A stretch of 64,000 bases of DNA from Candidatus Iainarchaeum sp. Its GTDB lineage: Archaea; Iainarchaeota; Iainarchaeia; Iainarchaeales; JAZDDZ01. The number at the start of each line of letters is the position of its first letter. Position 1 is the stretch's first letter. The translations under genes were made by a program, and so were the position numbers. The stretch spans positions 13,864 through 77,863 of the forward strand of contig JAZDDZ010000049.1 of NCBI GenBank assembly GCA_043809245.1, read 5' to 3'. Below are positions 1 to 6,296 of this stretch, one piece after another. The notes below the pieces were generated by a model, which saw only the letters and a program-made list of their open reading frames with translations, had not been told where the DNA came from and searched no databases.

Positions 1-125
1 GGAATCAGCAAAAGAGATAAGGCTAGTAATAGGTTAGCCTAAGCCCGCGACGATTGAATGGGAGTAAAGCGATTTACTTTAAGTAAACATTATGTTTATA
101 AATAGTAAACATTTAAACTACCATT

Positions 126-695
126 ATGAGTGTATTGCCGAAACTGTTGGGCCCATTTAACCTTCAAATGGTTGAAGTGCTGGTTGATGAGAATGTTTCT
201 GCAAGGGCTTTGGCTGGCAAAGTCGGGTGTTCGCCTGCAAAGGTGACGCAGTTCATCAAACTTTTCAGGAGAAACGGCTTGATTGAAATCATTAAGGAGA
301 AAAACAGGAAAATTGTCGCACTTAACAGGCATAACCCGTTGATACGGGAGATTATTTCATTGCTGTTTGTTTACAAAATAATTGGCGCAAGGGCTTTTTC
401 CGAGCTAAGGGGAAAATCGGGTTCAGTGGGGCTTTATGGCAGCGCCGCAGAGGGCACAGTGGACAAAAAAAGCGACATAGATTTATGGGTGGTCAGCGAC
501 AAAAAGTTTTCCCTTGAAAAAGCAGGCGAGTTAAGGATGCGGATAAGCAAGGAGCTTGGAAGGGAAGTTAGCTTAAAATTCTTCACGGAAAAAGACGTTG
601 AAAACCTCAGGCAAAAGGACGCGATTTTTTTCAACGAGCTTGAATACAAGTCAAAGATTCTGGCGGGTGAAGGGTTTGGGCAAAAGCAAAGTTGA
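126..695 (+). CDS. wHTH + Pol-beta superfamily nucleotidyltransferase (MNT-like, minimal NTase of an HEPN/MNT pair)
   Basis: NTase signature GSAAEGTVDKKSDIDLWVV (GS..x9-13..DxD). An N-terminal helix-turn-helix-like segment precedes it. A HEPN homolog follows in the same frame. Confidence 0.7.
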   Translation: MSVLPKLLGPFNLQMVEVLVDENVSARALAGKVGCSPAKVTQFIKLFRRNGLIEIIKEKNRKIVALNRHNPLIREIISLLFVYKIIGARAFSELRGKSGSVGLYGSAAEGTVDKKSDIDLWVVSDKKFSLEKAGELRMRISKELGREVSLKFFTEKDVENLRQKDAIFFNELEYKSKILAGEGFGQKQS

Positions 696-824
696 GGAAT
701 GCTTTGAGCAGGGGCTGCTTAAAAAAATTCGGCCGAACCTCCGCTATTCCGAGCACAGAGCATTAAGCAGGCAGAGCACTTTCTGGATGAAGCATATGAT
801 TTAATAGAGGGCAAGATAAATGAC

Positions 825-1076
825 ATGGCATTCATTGCTTTGTATAACGCCTCGTTTCATGCGGCAAGGGCGATTCTTTTCAGGGACGGGGTAAAGGAAA
901 GAAGCCATTACTGCGTCAGCAAATACATTGAGGAAAAATACCAAGAAAAAGAGCTGATAACTTTGCGCCAGGCAGTGATTCTTGATTCTCTCAGGGAAAA
1001 ACGCAACAGCATCCAGTACTCGCTTGAACCGCCTGAAACCGGGGAAGACCTAAACGAAATCTATGACGAAGTGTAA
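825..1076 (+). CDS. HEPN domain protein (partner of the upstream NTase); homology extends upstream to about 723, before the first ATG
   Basis: AYNASFHAARAILFRDGVKERSHY matches the HEPN (PF05168-type) helix and the conserved R/H motif. The in-frame upstream translation AEHFLDEAYDLIEGKINDM also looks HEPN-like but contains no ATG/GTG/TTG start. Confidence 0.55.
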   Translation: MAFIALYNASFHAARAILFRDGVKERSHYCVSKYIEEKYQEKELITLRQAVILDSLREKRNSIQYSLEPPETGEDLNEIYDEV

Positions 1077-1224
1077 AAACTAATTGAACGAGTGAAAGAA
1101 ATAATCAAAAAAGGAAAAAAACCCGCGCATTAGGCATATGCCTTTTGCCCCAATTTTGTATGCCTAACCTGTTAGGCGGGCGGACTCTATATTGCGCGCG
1201 CGAACCGAAACGCTTTAAAAGTTT

Positions 1225-1246
1225 AGTATATACTGTAGTATATACT
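1225..1246. promoter_or_regulatory. Two tandem copies of the perfect 10-bp palindrome AGTATATACT immediately before the ATG at 1247; putative operator. A TATA-like TTAAAAGT box lies about 27 nt upstream of the start codon.
   Basis: Read directly as AGTATATACT-GT-AGTATATACT-ATG. The downstream gene encodes an AbrB/SpoVT-like DNA-binding N-terminus. Confidence 0.45.
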
Positions 1247-2080
1247 ATGATAAAGCGTTTTGATGTCTTTGAGGAGGTTGTAAAGGAGGTTGTTCCTTTC
1301 GGCAACGGCAGCATTGTTTACACCCCGAAAAAATGGGTTGGCCAGACTGTAAGGGTTATTCTTGAAGGCGAGCCGCTTAACTTAAGGGAAAGCATTATGG
1401 AACCGCTTCAGCCTTTTTTGGAGCACGTTAAAGGCGTTTTCCTTCACGGGAGTTTTGCGAGGAACGAGCAATCAAGAGAGTCGGACATTGACGTGCTAGT
1501 GGTTGCTGATGAAAAATTCGTGCCGGAGAAAAAAGGCCGGCTTGATTTTACCGTGATTAGCGAGGCTGTTTTACGGAAAGAATTGGCGGGAAAAGACCCC
1601 TTCTATGTTTACAATATTTTGCAGGAAGCCAGGCCAATTTTAAACGAAAGCCTGTTAAAAGAGTTGAAGGGAATTAAAATTGACAAGCGGAACTTTAAGT
1701 GGCTTTTGGATGAAAGCGAAAGCGCGTTAAAGATAGCCAAGGAATTCCTGGAATTGGACAGGCAGCAGAAAAGGGAAACGCTTGACTCAACAGCGATAAT
1801 TTACACAATGGTTTTAAGGCTTAAAAGGCTTTTCATGGTTCAACGCGTTTTGGAAAACAAGAAATACTCAAACAAGGGTTTTAAGGAATTCATGGAAAGC
1901 AAGGGCTTGGCAAAAGAACTGGTTGAACGCACCCATAAAATCTACGGGGCGGAAAGGGATGAAAGAAAAGCCGCTGAAAGCATTTCCATTCAGGAAACCG
2001 GACAACTTTATGAAGTGGTTGAAAACGAGTTAAAGAAAATGAAAGGGGAATACAGGTGCCGTCAAAAAAGAAAAAACTGA
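1247..2080 (+). CDS. Fusion protein: AbrB/SpoVT-like swapped-hairpin N-terminus, Pol-beta nucleotidyltransferase, and a C-terminal HEPN-like helical domain
   Basis: VYTPKKWVGQTVRVILEG is an AbrB/MazE-type motif. GSFARNEQSRESDIDVLVV is an NTase motif. The C-terminal 120 aa is helical and HEPN-like. The track ORF begins at 1145, but the first 34 codons are just a translation of the palindromic promoter region. Confidence 0.6.
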   Translation: MIKRFDVFEEVVKEVVPFGNGSIVYTPKKWVGQTVRVILEGEPLNLRESIMEPLQPFLEHVKGVFLHGSFARNEQSRESDIDVLVVADEKFVPEKKGRLDFTVISEAVLRKELAGKDPFYVYNILQEARPILNESLLKELKGIKIDKRNFKWLLDESESALKIAKEFLELDRQQKRETLDSTAIIYTMVLRLKRLFMVQRVLENKKYSNKGFKEFMESKGLAKELVERTHKIYGAERDERKAAESISIQETGQLYEVVENELKKMKGEYRCRQKRKN

Positions 2081-2435
2081 AAGGAATAGCATCAATTGAA
2101 AAAAGGATAAAAGAGCACGAATTGAAGCTGGCGCAGGCAATCTCCGAAGAAGGAAGGCAATATTTGGTTAAGGATATCAACCGCCTTAAAAAACAAAAAG
2201 AAAGAAAAGAAAGCCAAATTTAGCGCGGGCAAGCGAAAACCCCCTTAAAGGCAAAGGTTCATTAAATTAACTTCCCTTAAATTTAGCGAGGTGTGGTTAA
2301 TGGACTACGATGAGGCCAAAGGGATTCTTGGCGAGTACAGGAGGGGCACGACTTTCCCGAGAAGCGTTTTAGAGGAAGCAAGGGAAACAATCCGTAAAAA
2401 AGAATCGCTTGGCTCGGTAATGGGAAGAATCTGAA

Positions 2436-3800
2436 TCAGCACAATTCCAAGCAAAACTTTTTCGCTTCGGAAAGCTTATCCATCAAATCGTCCGCGTTAA
2501 ACATTTCGCCTTTTTCTTCCAACAACAAATCACCTGCAAAGCCGTTCAAAAACGCAGCAGCCAAAGCGCTATGCAACAAATCATTCTTTGCGGCAAAGCC
2601 AACCAGCAAGCCGGCAAGCACATCGCCTGTTCCGCCAGAAGTCATCATAGCGTTGCCTGAAAAATTCCTGTAAACGCGTTTTCCGTCGCTGACCAAATCC
2701 ACTTCGCCCTTCAGCAGAATCGCGCAGCCGAATTTCTTCGCCATCGCCTTCACATTCGCCTCGGTTGCGGCAACTCCAAACAATACCTTGAACTCGCCTG
2801 CATGAGGCGTCAGGCAGCAATTCTTCGTCAACAATTTTTTGTCCAGCAGGTGAAGCGCGGAGGCATCCAAAACGAATTTTTTAGAGGCGCCAAATTTTTT
2901 TAACAAGCCGTTAACAGTTTTCTTGGTTTTTTTATCCAAGGGAAGCCCGGGACCGACCAAAACAGCATCCGCTCCCTTTGCGATTTTTTCAGCTTCTTTC
3001 AGTTCCGAGACAATGAATTCAGGGGAAAACTTTTTCACAACCGAAACATTTTCTTTTTCCGTTGCAAAGAAAACCAAATCCACCAAGCGCGAGGCCGTGA
3101 TTCCCGAGAAAAGCGCTGCACCGTGCCATTTTTTGGAGCCTGCAACAATCAGCACTTTTCCGTTTTCACCCTTATGGCTTCCCGCTTTCCTTTGCGCCAA
3201 AAACTTCACATACCCTGGACCTGCAATGGATTCCAGTTCCTTGGGAATGCCAATGCCAACAACCACTGCGCCCTGCACTTTTTTTTCATGCAGCGAAATA
3301 ACCAAATCCGCATTGAAGCCAGGCGCTGGGGCGTCCACTGCTATTTTTTTTGCGCGCAAGGAATTAATTCGCTTGATGATTGAATTAAATGGTTCTTTCA
3401 GTTTTCCTTTCACGCCAACGCCAAACAATGCTTCAACAACCAAATCAGCTTTCACTGCCTTTGGACTATCCGCCGCGTTTATTAAAACAATTTTTTTCAC
3501 TTTCTTTATTTTTTTAAGGCGTTCCCAATTGCTTCGCGCTTCAATTGTCTTTATTTCAGAAGGTTTTCCCGCCAAAAAAACCGTCACCCTATTTTTTCCG
3601 CTTAAATATCGCGCTGCAACGAATCCGTCGCCTCCGTTGTTTCCCAAGCCGCAGAAAATCGCGATGCTTTTGCCTGAGCCGAACCTTTTTTCAATCTCTC
3701 GCGCAATGCCTTTGCCTGCGTTATCCATCAATTGCTCAACAGGATAGCCGTAGAACTGCGCATTGCAGTCAAGGATTTTGGTTGAAAGCAATAGGTTCAA
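2436..3800 (-). CDS. nnr: Bifunctional NAD(P)H-hydrate repair enzyme (YjeF-N epimerase + ADP-dependent dehydratase)
   Basis: The N-terminal half carries the YjeF-N motif FCGLGNNGGDGFVAARYL. The C-terminal half carries the carbohydrate-kinase-like motifs VLVGPGL and GGTGDVLAGLL. Confidence 0.85.
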   Translation of the reverse strand: MNLLLSTKILDCNAQFYGYPVEQLMDNAGKGIAREIEKRFGSGKSIAIFCGLGNNGGDGFVAARYLSGKNRVTVFLAGKPSEIKTIEARSNWERLKKIKKVKKIVLINAADSPKAVKADLVVEALFGVGVKGKLKEPFNSIIKRINSLRAKKIAVDAPAPGFNADLVISLHEKKVQGAVVVGIGIPKELESIAGPGYVKFLAQRKAGSHKGENGKVLIVAGSKKWHGAALFSGITASRLVDLVFFATEKENVSVVKKFSPEFIVSELKEAEKIAKGADAVLVGPGLPLDKKTKKTVNGLLKKFGASKKFVLDASALHLLDKKLLTKNCCLTPHAGEFKVLFGVAATEANVKAMAKKFGCAILLKGEVDLVSDGKRVYRNFSGNAMMTSGGTGDVLAGLLVGFAAKNDLLHSALAAAFLNGFAGDLLLEEKGEMFNADDLMDKLSEAKKFCLELC

Positions 3801-3871
3801 GTTTTTTCACCCGCAGTAAGTAGATTAGCGTAATAAATTGAATAAAAAGCCTTGCCTTAAAGGGGAGTAAA

Positions 3872-3890
3872 AAGCAATATCTTTATAATA
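3872..3890 (+). promoter_or_regulatory. Archaeal TATA box (TTTATAATA) about 25 nt upstream of the ATG at 3913; implies a leaderless mRNA
   Basis: AAAGCAATATCTTTATAATAAC then about 22 nt to ATGGAG. The spacing fits an archaeal BRE/TATA promoter. Confidence 0.4.
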
Positions 3891-3912
3891 ACATTTCGTG
3901 TTACATTGTGTT

Positions 3913-4206
3913 ATGGAGTACGTTTCGTTCAAGCTGGAAAAAAACGTTTTGGAGCAGATTGACAGGGACATGAAGGCGTTTCATTACAGCACGCGCTCGG
4001 ATTTTTTCAGGGAAGCCGTAAGGGAAAAGCTGAAAAGCCTTGGCGAGGACAAGGAAAGGAAAAAGGCATTTAAGGCGCTTTACGCTACAAGAGGCATTTT
4101 CAAAGGAAAGGGCAAGTCAAAAACAGACGAGGAATTCAGGGCTTTAAGGGAAGAGGCTGGAAAGGAATTCATGGAGATTCTTGGCAAAAGATTCAATCAA
4201 AAATGA
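3913..4206 (+). CDS. Ribbon-helix-helix (CopG/VapB-like) DNA-binding protein
   Basis: MEYVSFKLEKNVLEQIDRDMKAFHYSTRSDFFREAVREKL fits the RHH beta-strand plus two helices. The C-terminal tail is basic. Confidence 0.55.
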   Translation: MEYVSFKLEKNVLEQIDRDMKAFHYSTRSDFFREAVREKLKSLGEDKERKKAFKALYATRGIFKGKGKSKTDEEFRALREEAGKEFMEILGKRFNQK

Positions 4207-4615
4207 CTTCTTCCGGAGCCAAAACGCCAATCAAATCATTCAAGCACTCAAAATGCCTGTCCCTCGTGACAAGAACTGCGTTATTGTCCCTTGCAAGTAT
4301 TGCGTGAAGCGCGTCAGATTCATGCGTTTCCCTTCTTTTAGCGGCAATCAGTTTTGCCTCCCTGTATTGTTTGGGATAAATGCTTACACACTCGAGGAAT
4401 GCGCTGAAAAAAGAAAAGGCATCTTTTATCCTTTCGGCAGAATACTCTTTCCTTAGCTCGAAAACTACAAGCTCGGAATAAAGCGCCCTGCACCCGAACA
4501 TTTCACAGTTCTTCAGGAACCTGAATGCGAATTCCCCCAAAGGCCTTAACCCGTCGCTTCTGCCCTCAAAGTAATCCCGCCAGATTGCAGTATCCAAATA
4601 AAACTTTTTAGCCAT
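4193..4615 (-). CDS. PIN-domain (VapC-like) ribonuclease
   Basis: The N-terminus YLDTAIW carries the conserved Asp. Central acidic residues are present, and the C-terminus VLVTRDRHF is the PIN motif. Confidence 0.7.
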   Translation of the reverse strand: MAKKFYLDTAIWRDYFEGRSDGLRPLGEFAFRFLKNCEMFGCRALYSELVVFELRKEYSAERIKDAFSFFSAFLECVSIYPKQYREAKLIAAKRRETHESDALHAILARDNNAVLVTRDRHFECLNDLIGVLAPEEVIFD

Positions 4616-4691
4616 GAAAAAACTGCTGCAATCACGCGCTTAAAAACCTCTCTAGACAGTGCGTTGCCGGTGCGAAAAGAGAAAATACAAT

Positions 4692-5519
4692 TCAAATCTC
4701 CGCAAAAACATTCGCGCCTTCAAACACGCTTTCAGGGTTATAGCCCCCCTCCAAAACCATGAAGTGCGGGTATTTTGCCAGAATTTCTTTTATTTTTTCA
4801 TAAGAGCGTTTTGTGAGTTCAAAGCCAGTGTTCGGGCCTAAAACTCCTTTGTCCTTGTAATAGGAGTCAAAGCCAGCGCTGACTGCGACAATGTCAGGCG
4901 CGAATTCCTTTAACGCAGGCGCAAGCTTTTGCTCCAAGAGGCGAACATAGGTTACGTCAAGGACTGTTCCATGCAAAGGGTAATTGGAGAAATTTTTTCC
5001 GGATTCAGTGCCTGTTCCGGGAAAAGCATCAGCCTGGTGGATGGAAAAATAATGGCAGTTCTCCTCGGATTCAAGGATTGCCTGTGTTCCGTTGCCGTGA
5101 TGCAAGTCAAAGTCAAAAACAAAAACCCTTTTGCCTTTTTTCAGAAGATATTTTGCGGCAATCGCAATGTTGTTGAATAAGCAGAAGCCCATGCCGTTGT
5201 TTTCCGAGGCGTGGTGGCCTGGGGGGCGCACCAAAGCAAATGACTGGGTTTCAGCCGCGCCAATTGCAGCGCCAACCGCATAACATGCGACTTCAAAGCT
5301 TTTCTCGCTTAACGGAGTGTCCTGGCTCAAAGAGCCCTTTTCTTTCGCGGTTTTTTTCACGTATTCAATGTAGGCGTCAGAGTGCGTGAGCTTGAGGTAG
5401 CCTTCGCCGTTCACTATCCTTGAATCCTTCAAATGGGAAAACATTGAAAGGCGAGCGGGGTTCTCTGGATGAGAGCCTGTGTCGTGCTGGAGGAAAATGG
5501 AGTTATAGATGATGCGCAT
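4692..5519 (-). CDS. Histone deacetylase-family (class I/II HDAC / AcuC-like) Zn-amidohydrolase, compact 275-aa form
   Basis: RPPGHHA and DFDLHHGNGTQ are the HDAC catalytic/Zn motifs. GGYNPES sits near the C-terminus. Confidence 0.8.
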   Translation of the reverse strand: MRIIYNSIFLQHDTGSHPENPARLSMFSHLKDSRIVNGEGYLKLTHSDAYIEYVKKTAKEKGSLSQDTPLSEKSFEVACYAVGAAIGAAETQSFALVRPPGHHASENNGMGFCLFNNIAIAAKYLLKKGKRVFVFDFDLHHGNGTQAILESEENCHYFSIHQADAFPGTGTESGKNFSNYPLHGTVLDVTYVRLLEQKLAPALKEFAPDIVAVSAGFDSYYKDKGVLGPNTGFELTKRSYEKIKEILAKYPHFMVLEGGYNPESVFEGANVFAEI

Positions 5520-5597
5520 GAGAAAAGAAAGGGATTAATTGAATAAAAAACTATCCTGAAGTGCCATCAGAAAAATAGGTGTGTTTTTTGCAAAGCA

Positions 5598-5951
5598 TTA
5601 TGCAAATAAATTAACATTACTTGTAATCACCCAAATAGAAACCATAACGGCGAGTAAATGGAATATTACGGCAATAAAAAAATATAACAGCTGCTTTTTT
5701 CTGTCAACATAAATTGGGGGAATCAACGGCTCCCAAATGTTCAAATCTAAAATTCCAGTCTTAATACTTTTAATCAGGCTATAGGAAAAAAACAGCAAAA
5801 GAATTATGCCAACAAAAAAGGAGATATTTGACCCATGCGGCTTAAAGAAAGGGATTACAAAAATAACAAGAAAAAAGGAAATAGCCGAAACCAAAACAAG
5901 GATAACCGTGCCGGAAATTGAAGGCCTTAAGTCCGCTAAGTCCGCTGTCAT
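5598..5951 (-). CDS. Small integral membrane protein, function unknown
   Basis: Three hydrophobic segments; no recognizable motif. Confidence 0.35.
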   Translation of the reverse strand: MTADLADLRPSISGTVILVLVSAISFFLVIFVIPFFKPHGSNISFFVGIILLLFFSYSLIKSIKTGILDLNIWEPLIPPIYVDRKKQLLYFFIAVIFHLLAVMVSIWVITSNVNLFA

Positions 5952-5990
5952 AGCAAATTAAATGGAAAAAAGGGGATAAAAAGGCTTTTG

Positions 5991-6296
5991 CTAGCCGCGC
6001 TTCTCTTCCTTTATGGCTTTCCCTTCCTTTGTATAAATTCGTCTCACAGCCATTCCTTTTTCAGGGTGCTTTGGGTGCATGCTTTCAGCCCTGAATGCAA
6101 CAAGGCCGCTTCCAGGGAATTGCCGATAGGTTATTCTTCCAACCTTGACTCCTTCAGGCGAAGAAGCAATTTTTTTAATGAAACGACTGGACAAACGGCG
6201 CTTAACCCACATGAAAAAATCAAGCGCAAACCAATATTTATTGCTTTTGCCACAGGCATATCTTATATTATGCCTGAACGCGGAAACCCTGTTCAC
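5991..6296 (-). CDS. Possible ribosomal protein L35Ae (weak); a basic 74-101 aa protein
   Basis: GRITYRQFPGSGLVAFRAE...KGMAVRRIY resembles the L35Ae core (GK[IV]xRxHGxxGxVRAxF...G). The real start may be the internal Met at 6212. It overlaps the compositionally poor 5' part of the plus-strand ORF 5988..6869. Confidence 0.4.
   Translation of the reverse strand: MNRVSAFRHNIRYACGKSNKYWFALDFFMWVKRRLSSRFIKKIASSPEGVKVGRITYRQFPGSGLVAFRAESMHPKHPEKGMAVRRIYTKEGKAIKEEKRG

What the first reader, a model, noticed from the sequence alone, without database searches (positions are those of the whole stretch)
126..2080. Two tandem MNT-HEPN modules: one split with no start codon for the HEPN part, one fully fused behind an AbrB-like domain
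In gene pair 1 the NTase and the HEPN homology lie in the same reading frame. Three stop codons (693, 705, 720) and about 100 nt of HEPN-like coding sequence separate them, all before the first ATG at 825. This suggests a decayed fusion, a non-AUG start, or a truncated antitoxin-like partner. The second gene is an AbrB-NTase-HEPN triple fusion. It is preceded by two copies of the palindrome AGTATATACT located between a TATA-like box and the ATG, an ideal autoregulatory operator for its own AbrB domain.
Basis: seen in the sequence. Interest (0 to 1): 0.5.

Follow-up and report, generated by a model that had tools for sequence, protein, structure and literature searches.

The report
Self-regulated DPANN nucleotidyltransferase operon, decayed neighbour
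Two unrelated nucleotidyltransferase modules lie side by side in a DPANN archaeon: the first is an ordinary toxin-antitoxin-like pair whose HEPN gene is broken, and the second belongs to a DPANN-wide family whose promoter carries two deeply conserved 8-base boxes that its own N-terminal DNA-binding domain probably uses to repress itself.

Summary

**Pair 1 (126-1133)** is a wHTH-nucleotidyltransferase gene plus a HEPN pseudogene, not a decayed fusion.
- The HEPN gene starts at GTG 667 or TTG 676 in the +1 frame.
- It carries a 2-nt CA insertion (754-755) that seven orthologues lack.
- It also has a GAA>TAA premature stop at 1074.
- Orthologues are intact, separate, overlapping genes of 145-155 aa.
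- The pair matches the PADLOC candidate defence system PDC-M05.

**Gene 2 (ATG 1247-2080)** has three domains: DUF2080 (MazE/AbrB-like), an MNT nucleotidyltransferase, and a HEPN-fold helical domain without the Rx4-6H RNase motif.
- It belongs to a DPANN-wide family of about 194 clusters at 50% identity.

**The palindrome** is the main result.
- 65 of 67 family promoters (64 non-identical) carry two GT[A/C]TATAC boxes 10-12 bp apart, just after the TATA box.
- The box pair occurs nowhere else in 459 kb of fetched loci.
- The box variant tracks the DNA-binding-domain subtype.
- Autorepression is therefore well supported but untested. The enzyme's substrate is unknown.

The two modules are not linked in any other genome examined.

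The parts
71..111 (+). Gene-1 promoter with four alternating half-sites: GATTTAC 71-77, GTAAACA 83-89, TGTTTAT 93-99 and GTAAACA 105-111. They surround and overlap the TATA box TTTATAAATA (95-104). This is the probable operator for the gene's own wHTH domain.
   Evidence: The pattern TGTTTAC-N5-GTAAACA-N3-TGTTTATAAAT-N-GTAAACA is conserved upstream of 10 orthologous wHTH-MNT genes. The direct repeat AGTAAACATT occurs at 82-91 and 104-113. The TATA centre is about 27 nt from ATG 126, so the mRNA is probably leaderless (inference from standard archaeal promoter geometry).
126..695 (+). Gene 1: an intact 189-aa protein with an N-terminal winged-HTH and a minimal nucleotidyltransferase (MNT).
   Evidence: Pfam NTP_transf_2 E 1.9e-10 (residues 89-166), with weak HTH family hits over residues 4-68. 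PADLOC PDC-M05A E 2.9e-16 over residues 21-179. The GS...DID motif is intact. Full-length orthologues lie directly upstream of HEPN orthologues in dozens of loci.
667..1133 (+). HEPN (PF05168 / UPF0332-type) pseudogene. The start is GTG 667 or TTG 676 in the +1 frame, read to 753. A 2-nt CA insertion sits at 754-755. The remainder lies in the NTase frame, 756-1073. A premature TAA is at 1074-1076. The residual native tail runs 1077-1130, with the native stop TAG at 1131-1133.
   Evidence: Three-frame translations. The protein alignment with 20 orthologues reads 'IRPNLxY[AS]EQSIKQAEHFL' in one frame and ends 'EVxxFIERVKEIIKKGKKP'. The DNA alignment with 7 orthologues shows the CA insertion and GAA>TAA. 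Pfam HEPN E 6.6e-12 for the reconstruction. NCBI annotated only a 104-aa remnant starting at ATT 762 (P0097).
1214..1220 (+). TATA box (TTTAAAA) of the gene-2 operon.
   Evidence: A conserved TAAAtA block (0.6-1.5 bits per position) lies 6-11 nt upstream of box 1 in 64 non-identical family promoters. It sits about 27-33 nt upstream of the ATG, so the mRNA is probably leaderless (inference).
1225..1246 (.). Twin operator: AGTATATACT at 1225-1234 and 1237-1246 (conserved cores GTATATAC at 1226-1233 and 1238-1245), spaced 12 bp start to start. The second copy abuts ATG 1247.
   Evidence: Exact copies occur only here in the window. Two GT[A/C]TATAC boxes 10-12 bp apart are present at 65 of 67 family promoters. 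Seven of the eight box positions carry 1.5-2.0 bits (most 2.0) while the non-TATA flanks mostly carry <0.5 bit. 61 twin sites lie at target promoters, and the only 2 others in 459 kb are paralogue promoters, against 0.007 expected by chance.
1247..2080 (+). Gene 2 (277 aa). Domains: DUF2080 (MazE/AbrB-like), residues ~1-44 (1247-1378); MNT nucleotidyltransferase, ~46-132 (1382-1642); HEPN-fold helical domain, ~134-277 (1646-2077).
2056..2223 (+). Conserved partner ORF (55 aa, GTG start, overlapping the end of gene 2 by 25 nt). It is basic at the N-terminus and predicted to form a two-helix hairpin.
   Evidence: An equivalent same-strand ORF, mostly 54-63 aa (up to 70), starts within about -50 to 0 nt of the gene end after 61 of the 62 intact family genes checked. 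Invariant residues are M1, K4, K9, H21 and K24; near-invariant are I11, S13, I18, Y36 and K51. AF2 predicts helices 4-27 and 31-54 with pLDDT 92. No Pfam, NCBIfam, PADLOC or PDB relative was found.

Best explanation
The region holds two independent, self-contained modules that are adjacent only in this genome, a Candidatus Diapherotrites (DPANN) MAG.

Module 1 is a wHTH-MNT plus HEPN pair of the archaeal PDC-M05 / HEPN-MNT kind.
- The HEPN gene has been inactivated by a 2-nt insertion and a nonsense mutation (shown).
- The wHTH-MNT gene and its conserved palindromic promoter are intact (shown).
- This leaves an orphan antitoxin-like regulator (inferred).

Module 2 is a two-gene, probably leaderless operon conserved across DPANN.
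- Gene 2 encodes a DUF2080 DNA-binding domain fused to an active-looking MNT nucleotidyltransferase and a HEPN-fold helical domain. The arrangement is like ANT/KNTase-type enzymes (shown at domain and fold level).
- An overlapping ORF encodes a 55-aa helical hairpin (shown).

Proposed mechanism for module 2 (all steps inferred):
- The protein dimerises, and the paired DUF2080 halves form one symmetric DNA-binding unit.
- Two dimers occupy the two quasi-palindromic GT[A/C]TATAC boxes, which are one helical turn apart between the TATA box and the start site.
- This blocks RNA polymerase recruitment, so the operon represses itself.
- The NTase/HEPN-like cleft nucleotidylylates a substrate. The likeliest candidates are the co-encoded small protein or the enzyme itself, by analogy with MntA AMPylating HepT. 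The modification state may feed back on repression.
- The HEPN-like domain lacks the RNase motif, so it is not a toxin. The module looks like a domesticated relative of type VII toxin-antitoxin systems.
For: Module 1:
- Frame analysis.
- 20 intact orthologues read through the break in one frame and extend past the window's stop.
- The DNA alignment shows the CA insertion and GAA>TAA.
- wHTH-MNT orthologues lie directly upstream of, and overlap, the HEPN genes.
- PADLOC PDC-M05A and PDC-M05B both match.
- The gene-1 promoter repeats are conserved.

Module 2:
- Domain assignments.
- Invariant GS..D.D catalytic residues, and no conserved His in the C-terminal domain.
- Family size and fixed length.
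- The partner ORF follows 61 of the 62 intact family genes checked.

Operator:
- Present at 65 of 67 promoters down to ~33% protein identity.
- Information content is confined to the 8-mers and the TATA box.
- It is exclusive to family promoters: 63 observed against 0.007 expected, while single boxes elsewhere number 14 against ~32 expected, so there is no regulon or general motif.
- In six loci with a 27-51 nt leader the boxes stay with the TATA box rather than the ATG.
- F-type domains (FGNGSIVYTPK) go with GTATATAC at box 2 in 27 of 30 loci. S-type domains (SGNGGAVWVPK) go with GTCTATAC or its complement in 31 of 35 loci (Fisher p 2e-11, not corrected for phylogeny). F-type proteins inside Woesearchaeota MAGs still carry a GTATATAC box.
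- DUF2080 is a validated antitoxin domain (PMC10440598).

Independence of the modules: neither is found next to the other in 149 other loci.
Against: - No binding, transcription or enzyme data exist.
- The AbrB/MazE relationship of DUF2080 is weak here (hhalign probability 16%; PF04014 E 0.011 in 2 of 24 sequences). No structural test of the isolated domain was possible.
- The covariation is confounded by shared ancestry of gene and promoter.
- The boxes contain TATA-like sequence in the Diapherotrites type.
- The small protein has a basic N-terminus and could be the DNA binder.
- The substrate proposal rests only on analogy.
- The HEPN lesions come from a single MAG assembly and were not checked against reads.
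- For PF05168-type HEPN proteins, toxicity has not, to my knowledge, been shown. Their motif here is RNxxxY rather than Rx4-6H.
Confidence: 0.7

Rival explanations
1. The pair-1 HEPN is still functional as a shortened protein from a non-canonical or internal start (ATT 762 as NCBI annotated it, or ATG 825), or is restored by programmed frameshifting.
For: An open frame of 104 codons remains from 762 and still matches Pfam HEPN (ATG-825 version E 4.4e-6). NCBI called it a gene (P0097). The RNSIQY motif region is retained.
Against: The remnant lacks the first helix, which is nearly invariant in orthologues (C12, F13, G16, L17, L18, K19). It also lacks the C-terminal 'FIERVKEIIKKGKKP' helix, cut off by the nonsense codon. 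There is no slippery X XXY YYZ heptamer at 745-757 (read). Two independent lesions argue for decay.
Confidence: 0.1
2. The HEPN gene is intact in the organism. The CA insertion and the TAA are assembly or consensus errors, or minority alleles in the metagenome bin.
For: The sequence comes from a single MAG contig. No reads were available. The CA insertion creates a short CACA repeat.
Against: There are two unrelated lesions 320 nt apart, a 2-nt insertion and a G>T substitution. Neither is in a homopolymer, and such changes are atypical of short-read consensus errors. The MNT stop has also drifted by 5 codons relative to orthologues. Other truncated copies exist elsewhere, for example L083 with an 86-aa ORF.
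Confidence: 0.1
3. The twin GT[A/C]TATAC boxes are real regulatory DNA but are not bound by the gene-2 DUF2080 domain. They might be bound by the small basic helical-hairpin protein, by an unlinked host factor, or act as core-promoter or initiator elements.
For: The small protein has an invariant K-rich N-terminus and is always co-encoded. The Diapherotrites-type box contains TATATA. There is no direct evidence for which protein binds.
Against: The box pair is found only at this family's promoters, not at other genes, which argues against a general promoter element or a global factor. The Woesearchaeota-type box GTCTATAC is a poor TATA box, and a canonical TATA box sits at the right distance upstream. 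The box variant tracks the DUF2080 subtype. DUF2080 is the only recognisable DNA-binding-type domain in the operon.
Confidence: 0.2
4. Module 2 is a true toxin-antitoxin or anti-virus module: a fused type VII system like FhepTA, or a Hailong-like signalling NTase. The HEPN-like domain or the small protein would be the toxic effector.
Against: No Rx4-6H motif or conserved His is present. The HalB score is far below its cut-off (39 against 190), and no HalA-like membrane partner follows the gene; a soluble 55-aa hairpin does. PADLOC matches cover only the NTase motif. The family is broadly conserved in DPANN and often sits among housekeeping genes such as RpoK, S17e, EF1-beta and aS21. This agrees with the published remark on a conserved DPANN MNT-HEPN fusion (PMC6393860).
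Confidence: 0.15

Closest known systems
Type VII HepT/MntA (HEPN-MNT) toxin-antitoxin systems (PMC7641770, PMC11586414) and the PADLOC candidate defence system PDC-M05 (PMC12988326)
   Same: Pair 1 is an MNT gene followed by an overlapping HEPN gene. Both proteins match the PDC-M05A and PDC-M05B models. The MNT has the GS..DxD motif.
   Different: The HEPN is of the PF05168/UPF0332 type with RNxxxY rather than the DUF86-type Rx4HxY. The MNT scores below the MntA equivalog cut-off (31.9 against 60) and carries an N-terminal wHTH with its own conserved operator. In this window the HEPN gene is a pseudogene.
Fused MNT-HEPN toxin-antitoxin proteins (FhepTA, Shewanella; PMC13000451)
   Same: Gene 2 has an MNT domain followed by a HEPN-fold domain in one polypeptide.
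   Different: FhepTA keeps the RNase motif and the AMPylated Tyr next to it. The gene-2 family has only R237-D of that motif and no conserved His. The gene-2 family also has an extra N-terminal DUF2080 domain, a conserved small partner ORF and a conserved twin operator. It is archaeal and widely conserved rather than carried on mobile elements.
ANT/KNTase-type two-domain nucleotidyltransferases (ANT(9) 6sxj, ANT(4') 6nlt) and Hailong HalB (9dbh)
   Different: Sequence scores are far below family cut-offs (ANT(9) 21 against 340; HalB 39 against 190). There is no resistance or Hailong gene context. The N-terminal DNA-binding domain is absent from those enzymes.
[quoted passage not shown]
   Same: The description matches in architecture, in restriction to DPANN, in broad conservation and in housekeeping neighbours.
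   Different: Identity with that cluster could not be verified, because no N. equitans sequence was reachable. The paper does not mention the DUF2080 domain, the partner ORF or the operator.
AbrB/MazE-type antitoxin autorepressors and DUF2080 antitoxins (NetFlax SpnP2/DUF2080, PMC10440598)
   Same: A small N-terminal beta-rich domain with a G-N-G/S loop followed by 'V.xPK', as in MazE 'WGNSPAVRIP'. The operator lies in the gene's own promoter.
   Different: Here the domain is fused to an enzyme rather than to a toxin-neutralising tail. Superfamily membership is only weakly supported by sequence.

Membership tests
Type VII HepT/MntA TA (pair 1) | MNT antitoxin with GSx10DxD that reaches the MntA model threshold | tested here: not met
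   The motif is present (GSAAEGTVDKKSDIDLW). However, NCBIfam MntA_antitoxin scores 31.9 bits against a cut-off of 60.
Type VII HepT/MntA TA (pair 1) | Intact HEPN toxin with Rx4-6H and an adjacent Tyr | tested here: not met
   The gene is disrupted by a CA insertion and a nonsense codon. The orthologue motif is R113-N-D-I-Q-Y118, with no His.
Type VII HepT/MntA TA (pair 1) | MNT AMPylates HEPN | not testable with these tools
   This needs biochemistry.
PADLOC PDC-M05 (pair 1) | Adjacent M05A nucleotidyltransferase and M05B HEPN proteins | tested here: met
   PDC-M05A E 2.9e-16 over residues 21-179. PDC-M05B E 1e-5 for the reconstructed HEPN. The genes overlap. Caveat: the M05B gene is a pseudogene here.
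DUF2080 (PF09853 / NF033496), gene-2 N-terminus | Score above the curated cut-off | tested here: met
   Pfam: 22.0 bits against 21.5 for the isolated domain, and 24 of 24 family N-termini match. NCBIfam: 33.1 bits against 22.
AbrB/MazE swapped-hairpin superfamily, gene-2 N-terminus | Detectable homology or fold match to AbrB/MazE | tested here: inconclusive
   PF04014 E 0.011 in 2 of 24 sequences. hhalign to E. coli MazE aligns the GNG/GNS loop at 16% probability. A profile search of the PDB found nothing. The monomer model shows two beta strands only.
HEPN superfamily, gene-2 C-terminus | Four-helix up-down bundle resembling solved HEPN domains | tested here: met
HEPN superfamily, gene-2 C-terminus | Conserved Rx4-6H RNase motif | tested here: not met
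   R237-D is conserved, but there is no conserved His or Tyr 4-6 residues later, and no invariant His anywhere in 69 sequences.
HEPN superfamily, gene-2 C-terminus | Sequence-profile similarity to a HEPN family | tested here: not met
   There is no Pfam HEPN hit in 69 members. hhalign against the PF05168-type alignment gives probability 0.5%.
ANT/KNTase aminoglycoside nucleotidyltransferases | Family-level sequence score | tested here: not met
   ANT(9) scores 21 bits against a cut-off of 340. Only the fold is shared.
Hailong HalB | HalB equivalog score and an adjacent HalA effector | tested here: not met
   39.1 bits against a cut-off of 190. The downstream gene is a 55-aa soluble helical hairpin.
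DPANN cluster cls.004259 (NEQ050) | Sequence homology to NEQ050 | not testable with these tools
The paper's supplement holds no entry, no N. equitans hit was listed, and the AFDB library was unavailable. The match rests on the published description only.

The most novel reading that the evidence does not exclude
The gene-2 operon may be an ancient, DPANN-wide, self-repressing protein-nucleotidylylation switch. In this reading the DUF2080-MNT-HEPN-like enzyme AMPylates its co-encoded 55-63-aa helical-hairpin partner (invariant H21; near-invariant S13 and Y36) or itself (near-invariant Y233, next to R234xxR237D). The modification state then sets occupancy of the twin GT[A/C]TATAC operator. That would make it a domesticated descendant of type VII toxin-antitoxin systems, working as a housekeeping regulator in genome-reduced archaea.
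Probability: 0.2. Interest if true: 0.7.

Novelty: new variant of a known kind. Interest (0 to 1): 0.5.

Why it matters
A conserved MNT-HEPN fusion was flagged in 2019 as one of the few widely conserved DPANN-specific 'dark matter' genes, with no known function (PMC6393860). If gene 2 is that family, as the description suggests, this analysis adds three concrete, testable features.
- An N-terminal DUF2080 DNA-binding domain.
- A twin 8-bp operator conserved across Diapherotrites, Micrarchaeota, Woesearchaeota and Nanoarchaeota, with variants that track the binding domain.
- A partner ORF, predicted here to form a helical hairpin, that follows nearly every intact family gene checked.

Together these turn an opaque gene into a defined system of protein, DNA site and candidate substrate that can be tested in vitro without cultivating a DPANN organism. 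They also give a rare example of a cis-regulatory element traceable across archaeal phyla.

The pair-1 result is ordinary: a decaying HEPN-MNT module. It does correct the database annotation, which lists a 104-aa 'HEPN domain-containing protein'.

Tried and rejected
- **Decayed MNT-HEPN fusion in pair 1.** Rejected: orthologues are separate overlapping genes.
- **Programmed frameshift.** Rejected: there is no slippery heptamer, and there is a second lesion, the nonsense codon.
- **Frameshift in the A7 run at 721-727.** Rejected: orthologues match the +1 frame up to 'RYSE' (753).
- **Outer 10-nt inverted repeat, 1208-1217 / 1251-1260, bracketing the operator.** It is not conserved in any other locus and is treated as chance.
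- **tRNA or known RNA families in 1-6000 / 1-3000.** None found.
- **Exact-protein look-ups of gene 1 and gene 2.** Nothing on record, although a 100%-identical NCBI protein exists (P0001).
- **Small partner protein.** No Pfam, NCBIfam or PADLOC family and no PDB sequence relative was found. The best PDB sequence matches were a synthetic coiled coil (SYNZIP1, E 0.077) and a coiled-coil stretch of ClpE (E 0.59). Foldseek gave only generic helical hairpins, all with E>1.
- **Profile search of the DUF2080 domain against PDB sequences.** No hit.
- **hhalign of the gene-2 family against the pair-1 HEPN family.** No relationship.
- **Link to NEQ050/cls.004259.** The supplement search, a literature search and a third homologue search did not reach an N. 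equitans sequence. The AFDB fold library was not available.
- **Regulon search.** No further twin sites, and no excess of single boxes, in the window or in 459 kb of related loci.
- **Linkage of the two modules.** None in 149 other loci.
Full report
**Origin and layout.** Gene 2 is 100% identical to an NCBI protein from a Candidatus Diapherotrites (DPANN archaeon) MAG contig of 78,495 bp (P0001). The window has 42.6% G+C. The region contains:
- gene 1, 126-695 (wHTH + nucleotidyltransferase);
- HEPN-like sequence up to 1133;
- gene 2, ATG 1247-2080;
- an overlapping small ORF, 2056-2223.

**Checking the observation.** In the frame of ATG 126 there are stops at 693, 705 and 720, and the next ATG is at 825. 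The palindrome AGTATATACT occurs at 1225-1234 and 1237-1246 and nowhere else in 64 kb. It lies between TTTAAAA (1214-1220) and the ATG at 1247. These points are confirmed.

One point was missed. The beginning of the HEPN homology, '..KSKVEECFEQGLLKKIRPNLRYSE', is in the +1 frame. It starts at GTG 667 or TTG 676 and overlaps the end of gene 1.

**Pair 1 is a broken HEPN-MNT pair, not a decayed fusion.**
- A search with the reconstructed HEPN found 154 relatives. The closest are 75-82% identical, 145-155 aa long, and cover 96-100% of the reconstruction.
- Aligned, they read 'IRPNLxY[AS]EQSIKQAEHFL' in one frame. They continue beyond the window's 'EV*' with 'xxFIERVKEIIKKGKKP'.
- A DNA alignment with seven orthologous loci shows that the window alone has two extra bases, CA at 754-755 ('GAG CA CAG AGC').
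- It also shows that the TAA at 1074 replaces GAA or another sense codon. The window's own in-frame continuation, 'KLIERVKEIIKKGKKPAH*', runs to TAG 1131-1133.
- With two independent lesions and no slippery heptamer, a pseudogene is the simplest reading. NCBI annotated only a 104-aa remnant from ATT 762 (P0097).
- In orthologous loci a full-length wHTH-MNT gene lies immediately upstream and overlaps the HEPN start by 4-20 nt in most loci; the 80-89 nt values from the script reflect an upstream in-frame ATG. So the ancestral state is two genes.
- Gene 1 is intact (Pfam NTP_transf_2 E 1.9e-10, weak HTH hits over residues 4-68).
- The pair matches the PADLOC candidate system PDC-M05 (M05A E 2.9e-16 over nearly the whole protein; M05B E 1e-5). 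PMC12988326 describes PDC-M05 as an archaea-enriched NTase + HEPN module of TA type whose antiviral role is unconfirmed.
- It is not an MntA equivalog (31.9 against 60 bits). The HEPN is of the PF05168/UPF0332 type with RNxxxY rather than Rx4-6H.
- In the characterised HepT/MntA systems HEPN is the toxin and MNT the AMPylating antitoxin (PMC7641770). On that analogy, the toxin has decayed here and the regulator/antitoxin remains.

**Gene 1 has its own conserved operator.** Upstream of gene 1 and of ten orthologues the promoter reads TGTTTAC-N5-GTAAACA-N3-TGTTTATAAAT-N-GTAAACA. In the window the half-sites are at 71-77, 83-89, 93-99 and 105-111, with the TATA box at 95-104. These are alternating half-sites around the TATA box, about 27 nt from the ATG. 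This fits autoregulation by the wHTH domain on a leaderless transcript (inference).

**Gene 2: domain architecture.**
- The N-terminal ~44 residues match DUF2080. The isolated domain scores 22.0 bits against a Pfam cut-off of 21.5, and 24 of 24 family N-termini match. NCBIfam NF033496 scores 33.1 against 22.
- The next-best Pfam family is MazE_antitoxin (E 0.011 in 2 of 24 sequences). hhalign aligns 'VVPFGNGSIVYTPKK' with MazE 'VKRWGNSPAVRIPAT' at low probability (16%). So 'AbrB/MazE-like' is plausible but not established here.
- DUF2080 has been validated as an antitoxin domain (PMC10440598).
- Residues ~46-132 are a Pol-beta-type MNT (E 7.8e-9). G68, S69, D80 and D82 are invariant or near-invariant in 69 homologues.
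- An AlphaFold model built on that alignment is confident (pLDDT 91.7).
- The C-terminal domain therefore has the HEPN fold. It keeps only R237-D of the RNase signature, has no conserved His, gets no Pfam HEPN hit in 69 members, and shows no profile similarity to the pair-1 HEPN family.
- It is best described as an ANT/KNTase-like enzyme with a non-catalytic HEPN-type substrate-binding domain.

**Gene 2 belongs to a large DPANN family with a conserved partner.**
- Searches returned 93 and 165 full-length relatives of 250-283 aa. All named ones come from Diapherotrites, Micrarchaeota, Woesearchaeota, Pacearchaeota or Nanoarchaeota.
- An exhaustive profile search found 194 clusters at 50% identity with E<1e-30.
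- After 61 of the 62 intact family genes checked there is a same-strand ORF, mostly 54-63 aa (up to 70), starting within about -50 to 0 nt of the gene end.
- Its alignment has invariant K4, K9, H21 and K24 and near-invariant I11, S13, I18, Y36 and K51.
- The window copy is predicted to form a two-helix hairpin (pLDDT 92).
- It has no recognisable relatives.
- Neighbouring genes differ between loci and are often housekeeping: RpoK, S17e, EF1-beta and aS21.
- This matches the published description of DPANN cluster cls.004259 (NEQ050): 'MNT fused to HEPN ... typically in house-keeping context', present in 36 of 67 DPANN genomes (PMC6393860). I could not verify sequence identity with NEQ050.

**The operator.** I located the start codon in 67 family loci and read the upstream DNA.
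- 65 of the 67 have two boxes matching GT[A/C]TATAC (or the complement GTATAGAC) with 10-12 bp start-to-start spacing.
- In most loci the second box ends 0-3 nt before the ATG.
- The two exceptions (L061, L069) share one degenerate promoter, and the L069 gene is itself broken.
- Among 64 non-identical promoters, seven of the eight box positions carry 1.5-2.0 bits (most 2.0) and position 3 carries about 1 bit (A or C).
- A TATA block lies 6-11 nt upstream of box 1. Outside the TATA block and a short A-rich stretch upstream of it, flanking positions mostly carry <0.5 bit.
- The box pair is exclusive. 61 matches lie at the target promoters, and the only two others in 459 kb are promoters of tandem paralogues, against 0.007 expected.
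- Single boxes elsewhere are not enriched: 14 observed against about 32 expected.
- In six loci with a 27-51 nt leader the boxes remain next to the TATA box, not the ATG. So they belong to the promoter, not to translation initiation.
- The box type follows the DNA-binding-domain subtype. 'FGNGSIVYTPK' proteins have GTATATAC at box 2 in 27 of 30 loci. 'SGNGGAVWVPK' proteins have GTCTATAC or its complement in 31 of 35 loci. Fisher p is 2e-11, but this is not independent of phylogeny.
- F-type proteins from Woesearchaeota MAGs still carry at least one GTATATAC box.
- A subgroup with 'VARSGNG' has the two boxes in inverted orientation, GTCTATCC...GTATAGAC.
- The TATA box sits about 27-33 nt from the ATG, which implies a leaderless transcript, with the boxes between TATA and the start site. 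That is the position from which many archaeal repressors block polymerase recruitment (general knowledge; inference).

**Mechanism proposed.**
- Shown: the architecture, the conservation, and the exclusivity and position of the boxes.
- Inferred: dimers of the protein place a paired DUF2080 unit on each quasi-palindromic box, and two dimers one helical turn apart repress the operon.
- Inferred: the NTase with its HEPN-like domain modifies a substrate. By analogy with MntA/HepT and with self-AMPylating FhepTA (PMC7641770, PMC13000451), that substrate could be the small partner or the enzyme itself.
- The module lacks an evident toxin, so I do not file it as a toxin-antitoxin system.

**The tandem arrangement is coincidental.** No gene-2 relative occurs in 80 loci around pair-1 orthologues. 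No pair-1 relative occurs in 69 loci around gene-2 relatives, apart from cross-hits on the NTase motif.

**Verdict.** The pair-1 oddity is an ordinary pseudogene in a known kind of module. Gene 2 is a member of a family already noticed as conserved DPANN dark matter. Its three-domain make-up, its partner ORF and, above all, its phylum-spanning twin operator appear to be undescribed in the literature I could search, and they are directly testable. I rate it a new variant of a known kind, with interest 0.5.

Noticed in passing
window 71-111: The gene-1 promoter carries four alternating GTAAACA/TGTTTAC half-sites around the TATA box. They are conserved upstream of 10 orthologous wHTH-MNT genes and are probably the operator of the wHTH domain.
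   Followed up: partly
window 1118-1175: The intergenic DNA between the HEPN pseudogene and the gene-2 promoter contains the palindrome AGGCATATGCCT, the hairpin-like GCCTAACCTGTTAGGC and T-runs. These could be terminator-like or a relic of an insertion boundary.
   Followed up: no
window 1208-1217 and 1251-1260: A perfect 10-nt inverted repeat (AAACGCTTTA / TAAAGCGTTT) brackets the TATA box, both operator boxes and the ATG. It is not conserved in any related locus, so it is probably chance.
   Followed up: yes
L030, L035, L049 (also L051, L053, L054), upstream of the family gene: In a Woesearchaeota/Nanoarchaeota subgroup, 27-51 nt are inserted between the operator boxes and the ATG. In L030 they include a hairpin (CGAAAAAC-TTT-GTTTTTCG); L030, L035 and L049 share 'TTTTTCGTGGCTTTAAAA', a second TATA-like box. 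This may be a leader or an alternative promoter.
   Followed up: no
L003-L006 (about 4050 and 5440), L007 (about 3795), L075 (about 1930): Family genes occur as tandem paralogues, each with its own twin operator and small ORF. tRNA 3' ends lie directly upstream of several copies and of one pair-1 orthologue, which hints at insertion next to tRNA genes.
   Followed up: partly
L061 and L069 (about 2960-3130): These two loci share a promoter that has lost box 1. In L069 the family gene is also disrupted (a 45-aa ORF, then a frame change), so it is a decaying copy.
   Followed up: no
L003 4001-4906 (P0004): The database protein of 301 aa is over-extended at its N-terminus, across a tRNA 3' end and the operator. 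The true start is the ATG right after the second box (about 4073).
   Followed up: yes
window 1272-1293: The direct repeat AGGAGGTTGT x2 inside gene 2 reflects the repeated peptide EEVV-KEVV. It has no evident separate function.
   Followed up: no
window 661-695 compared with orthologues: The gene-1 stop codon has moved 5 codons downstream relative to orthologues ('GEGF*' became 'GEGFGQKQS*'). This lengthens the overlap with the HEPN start.
   Followed up: partly
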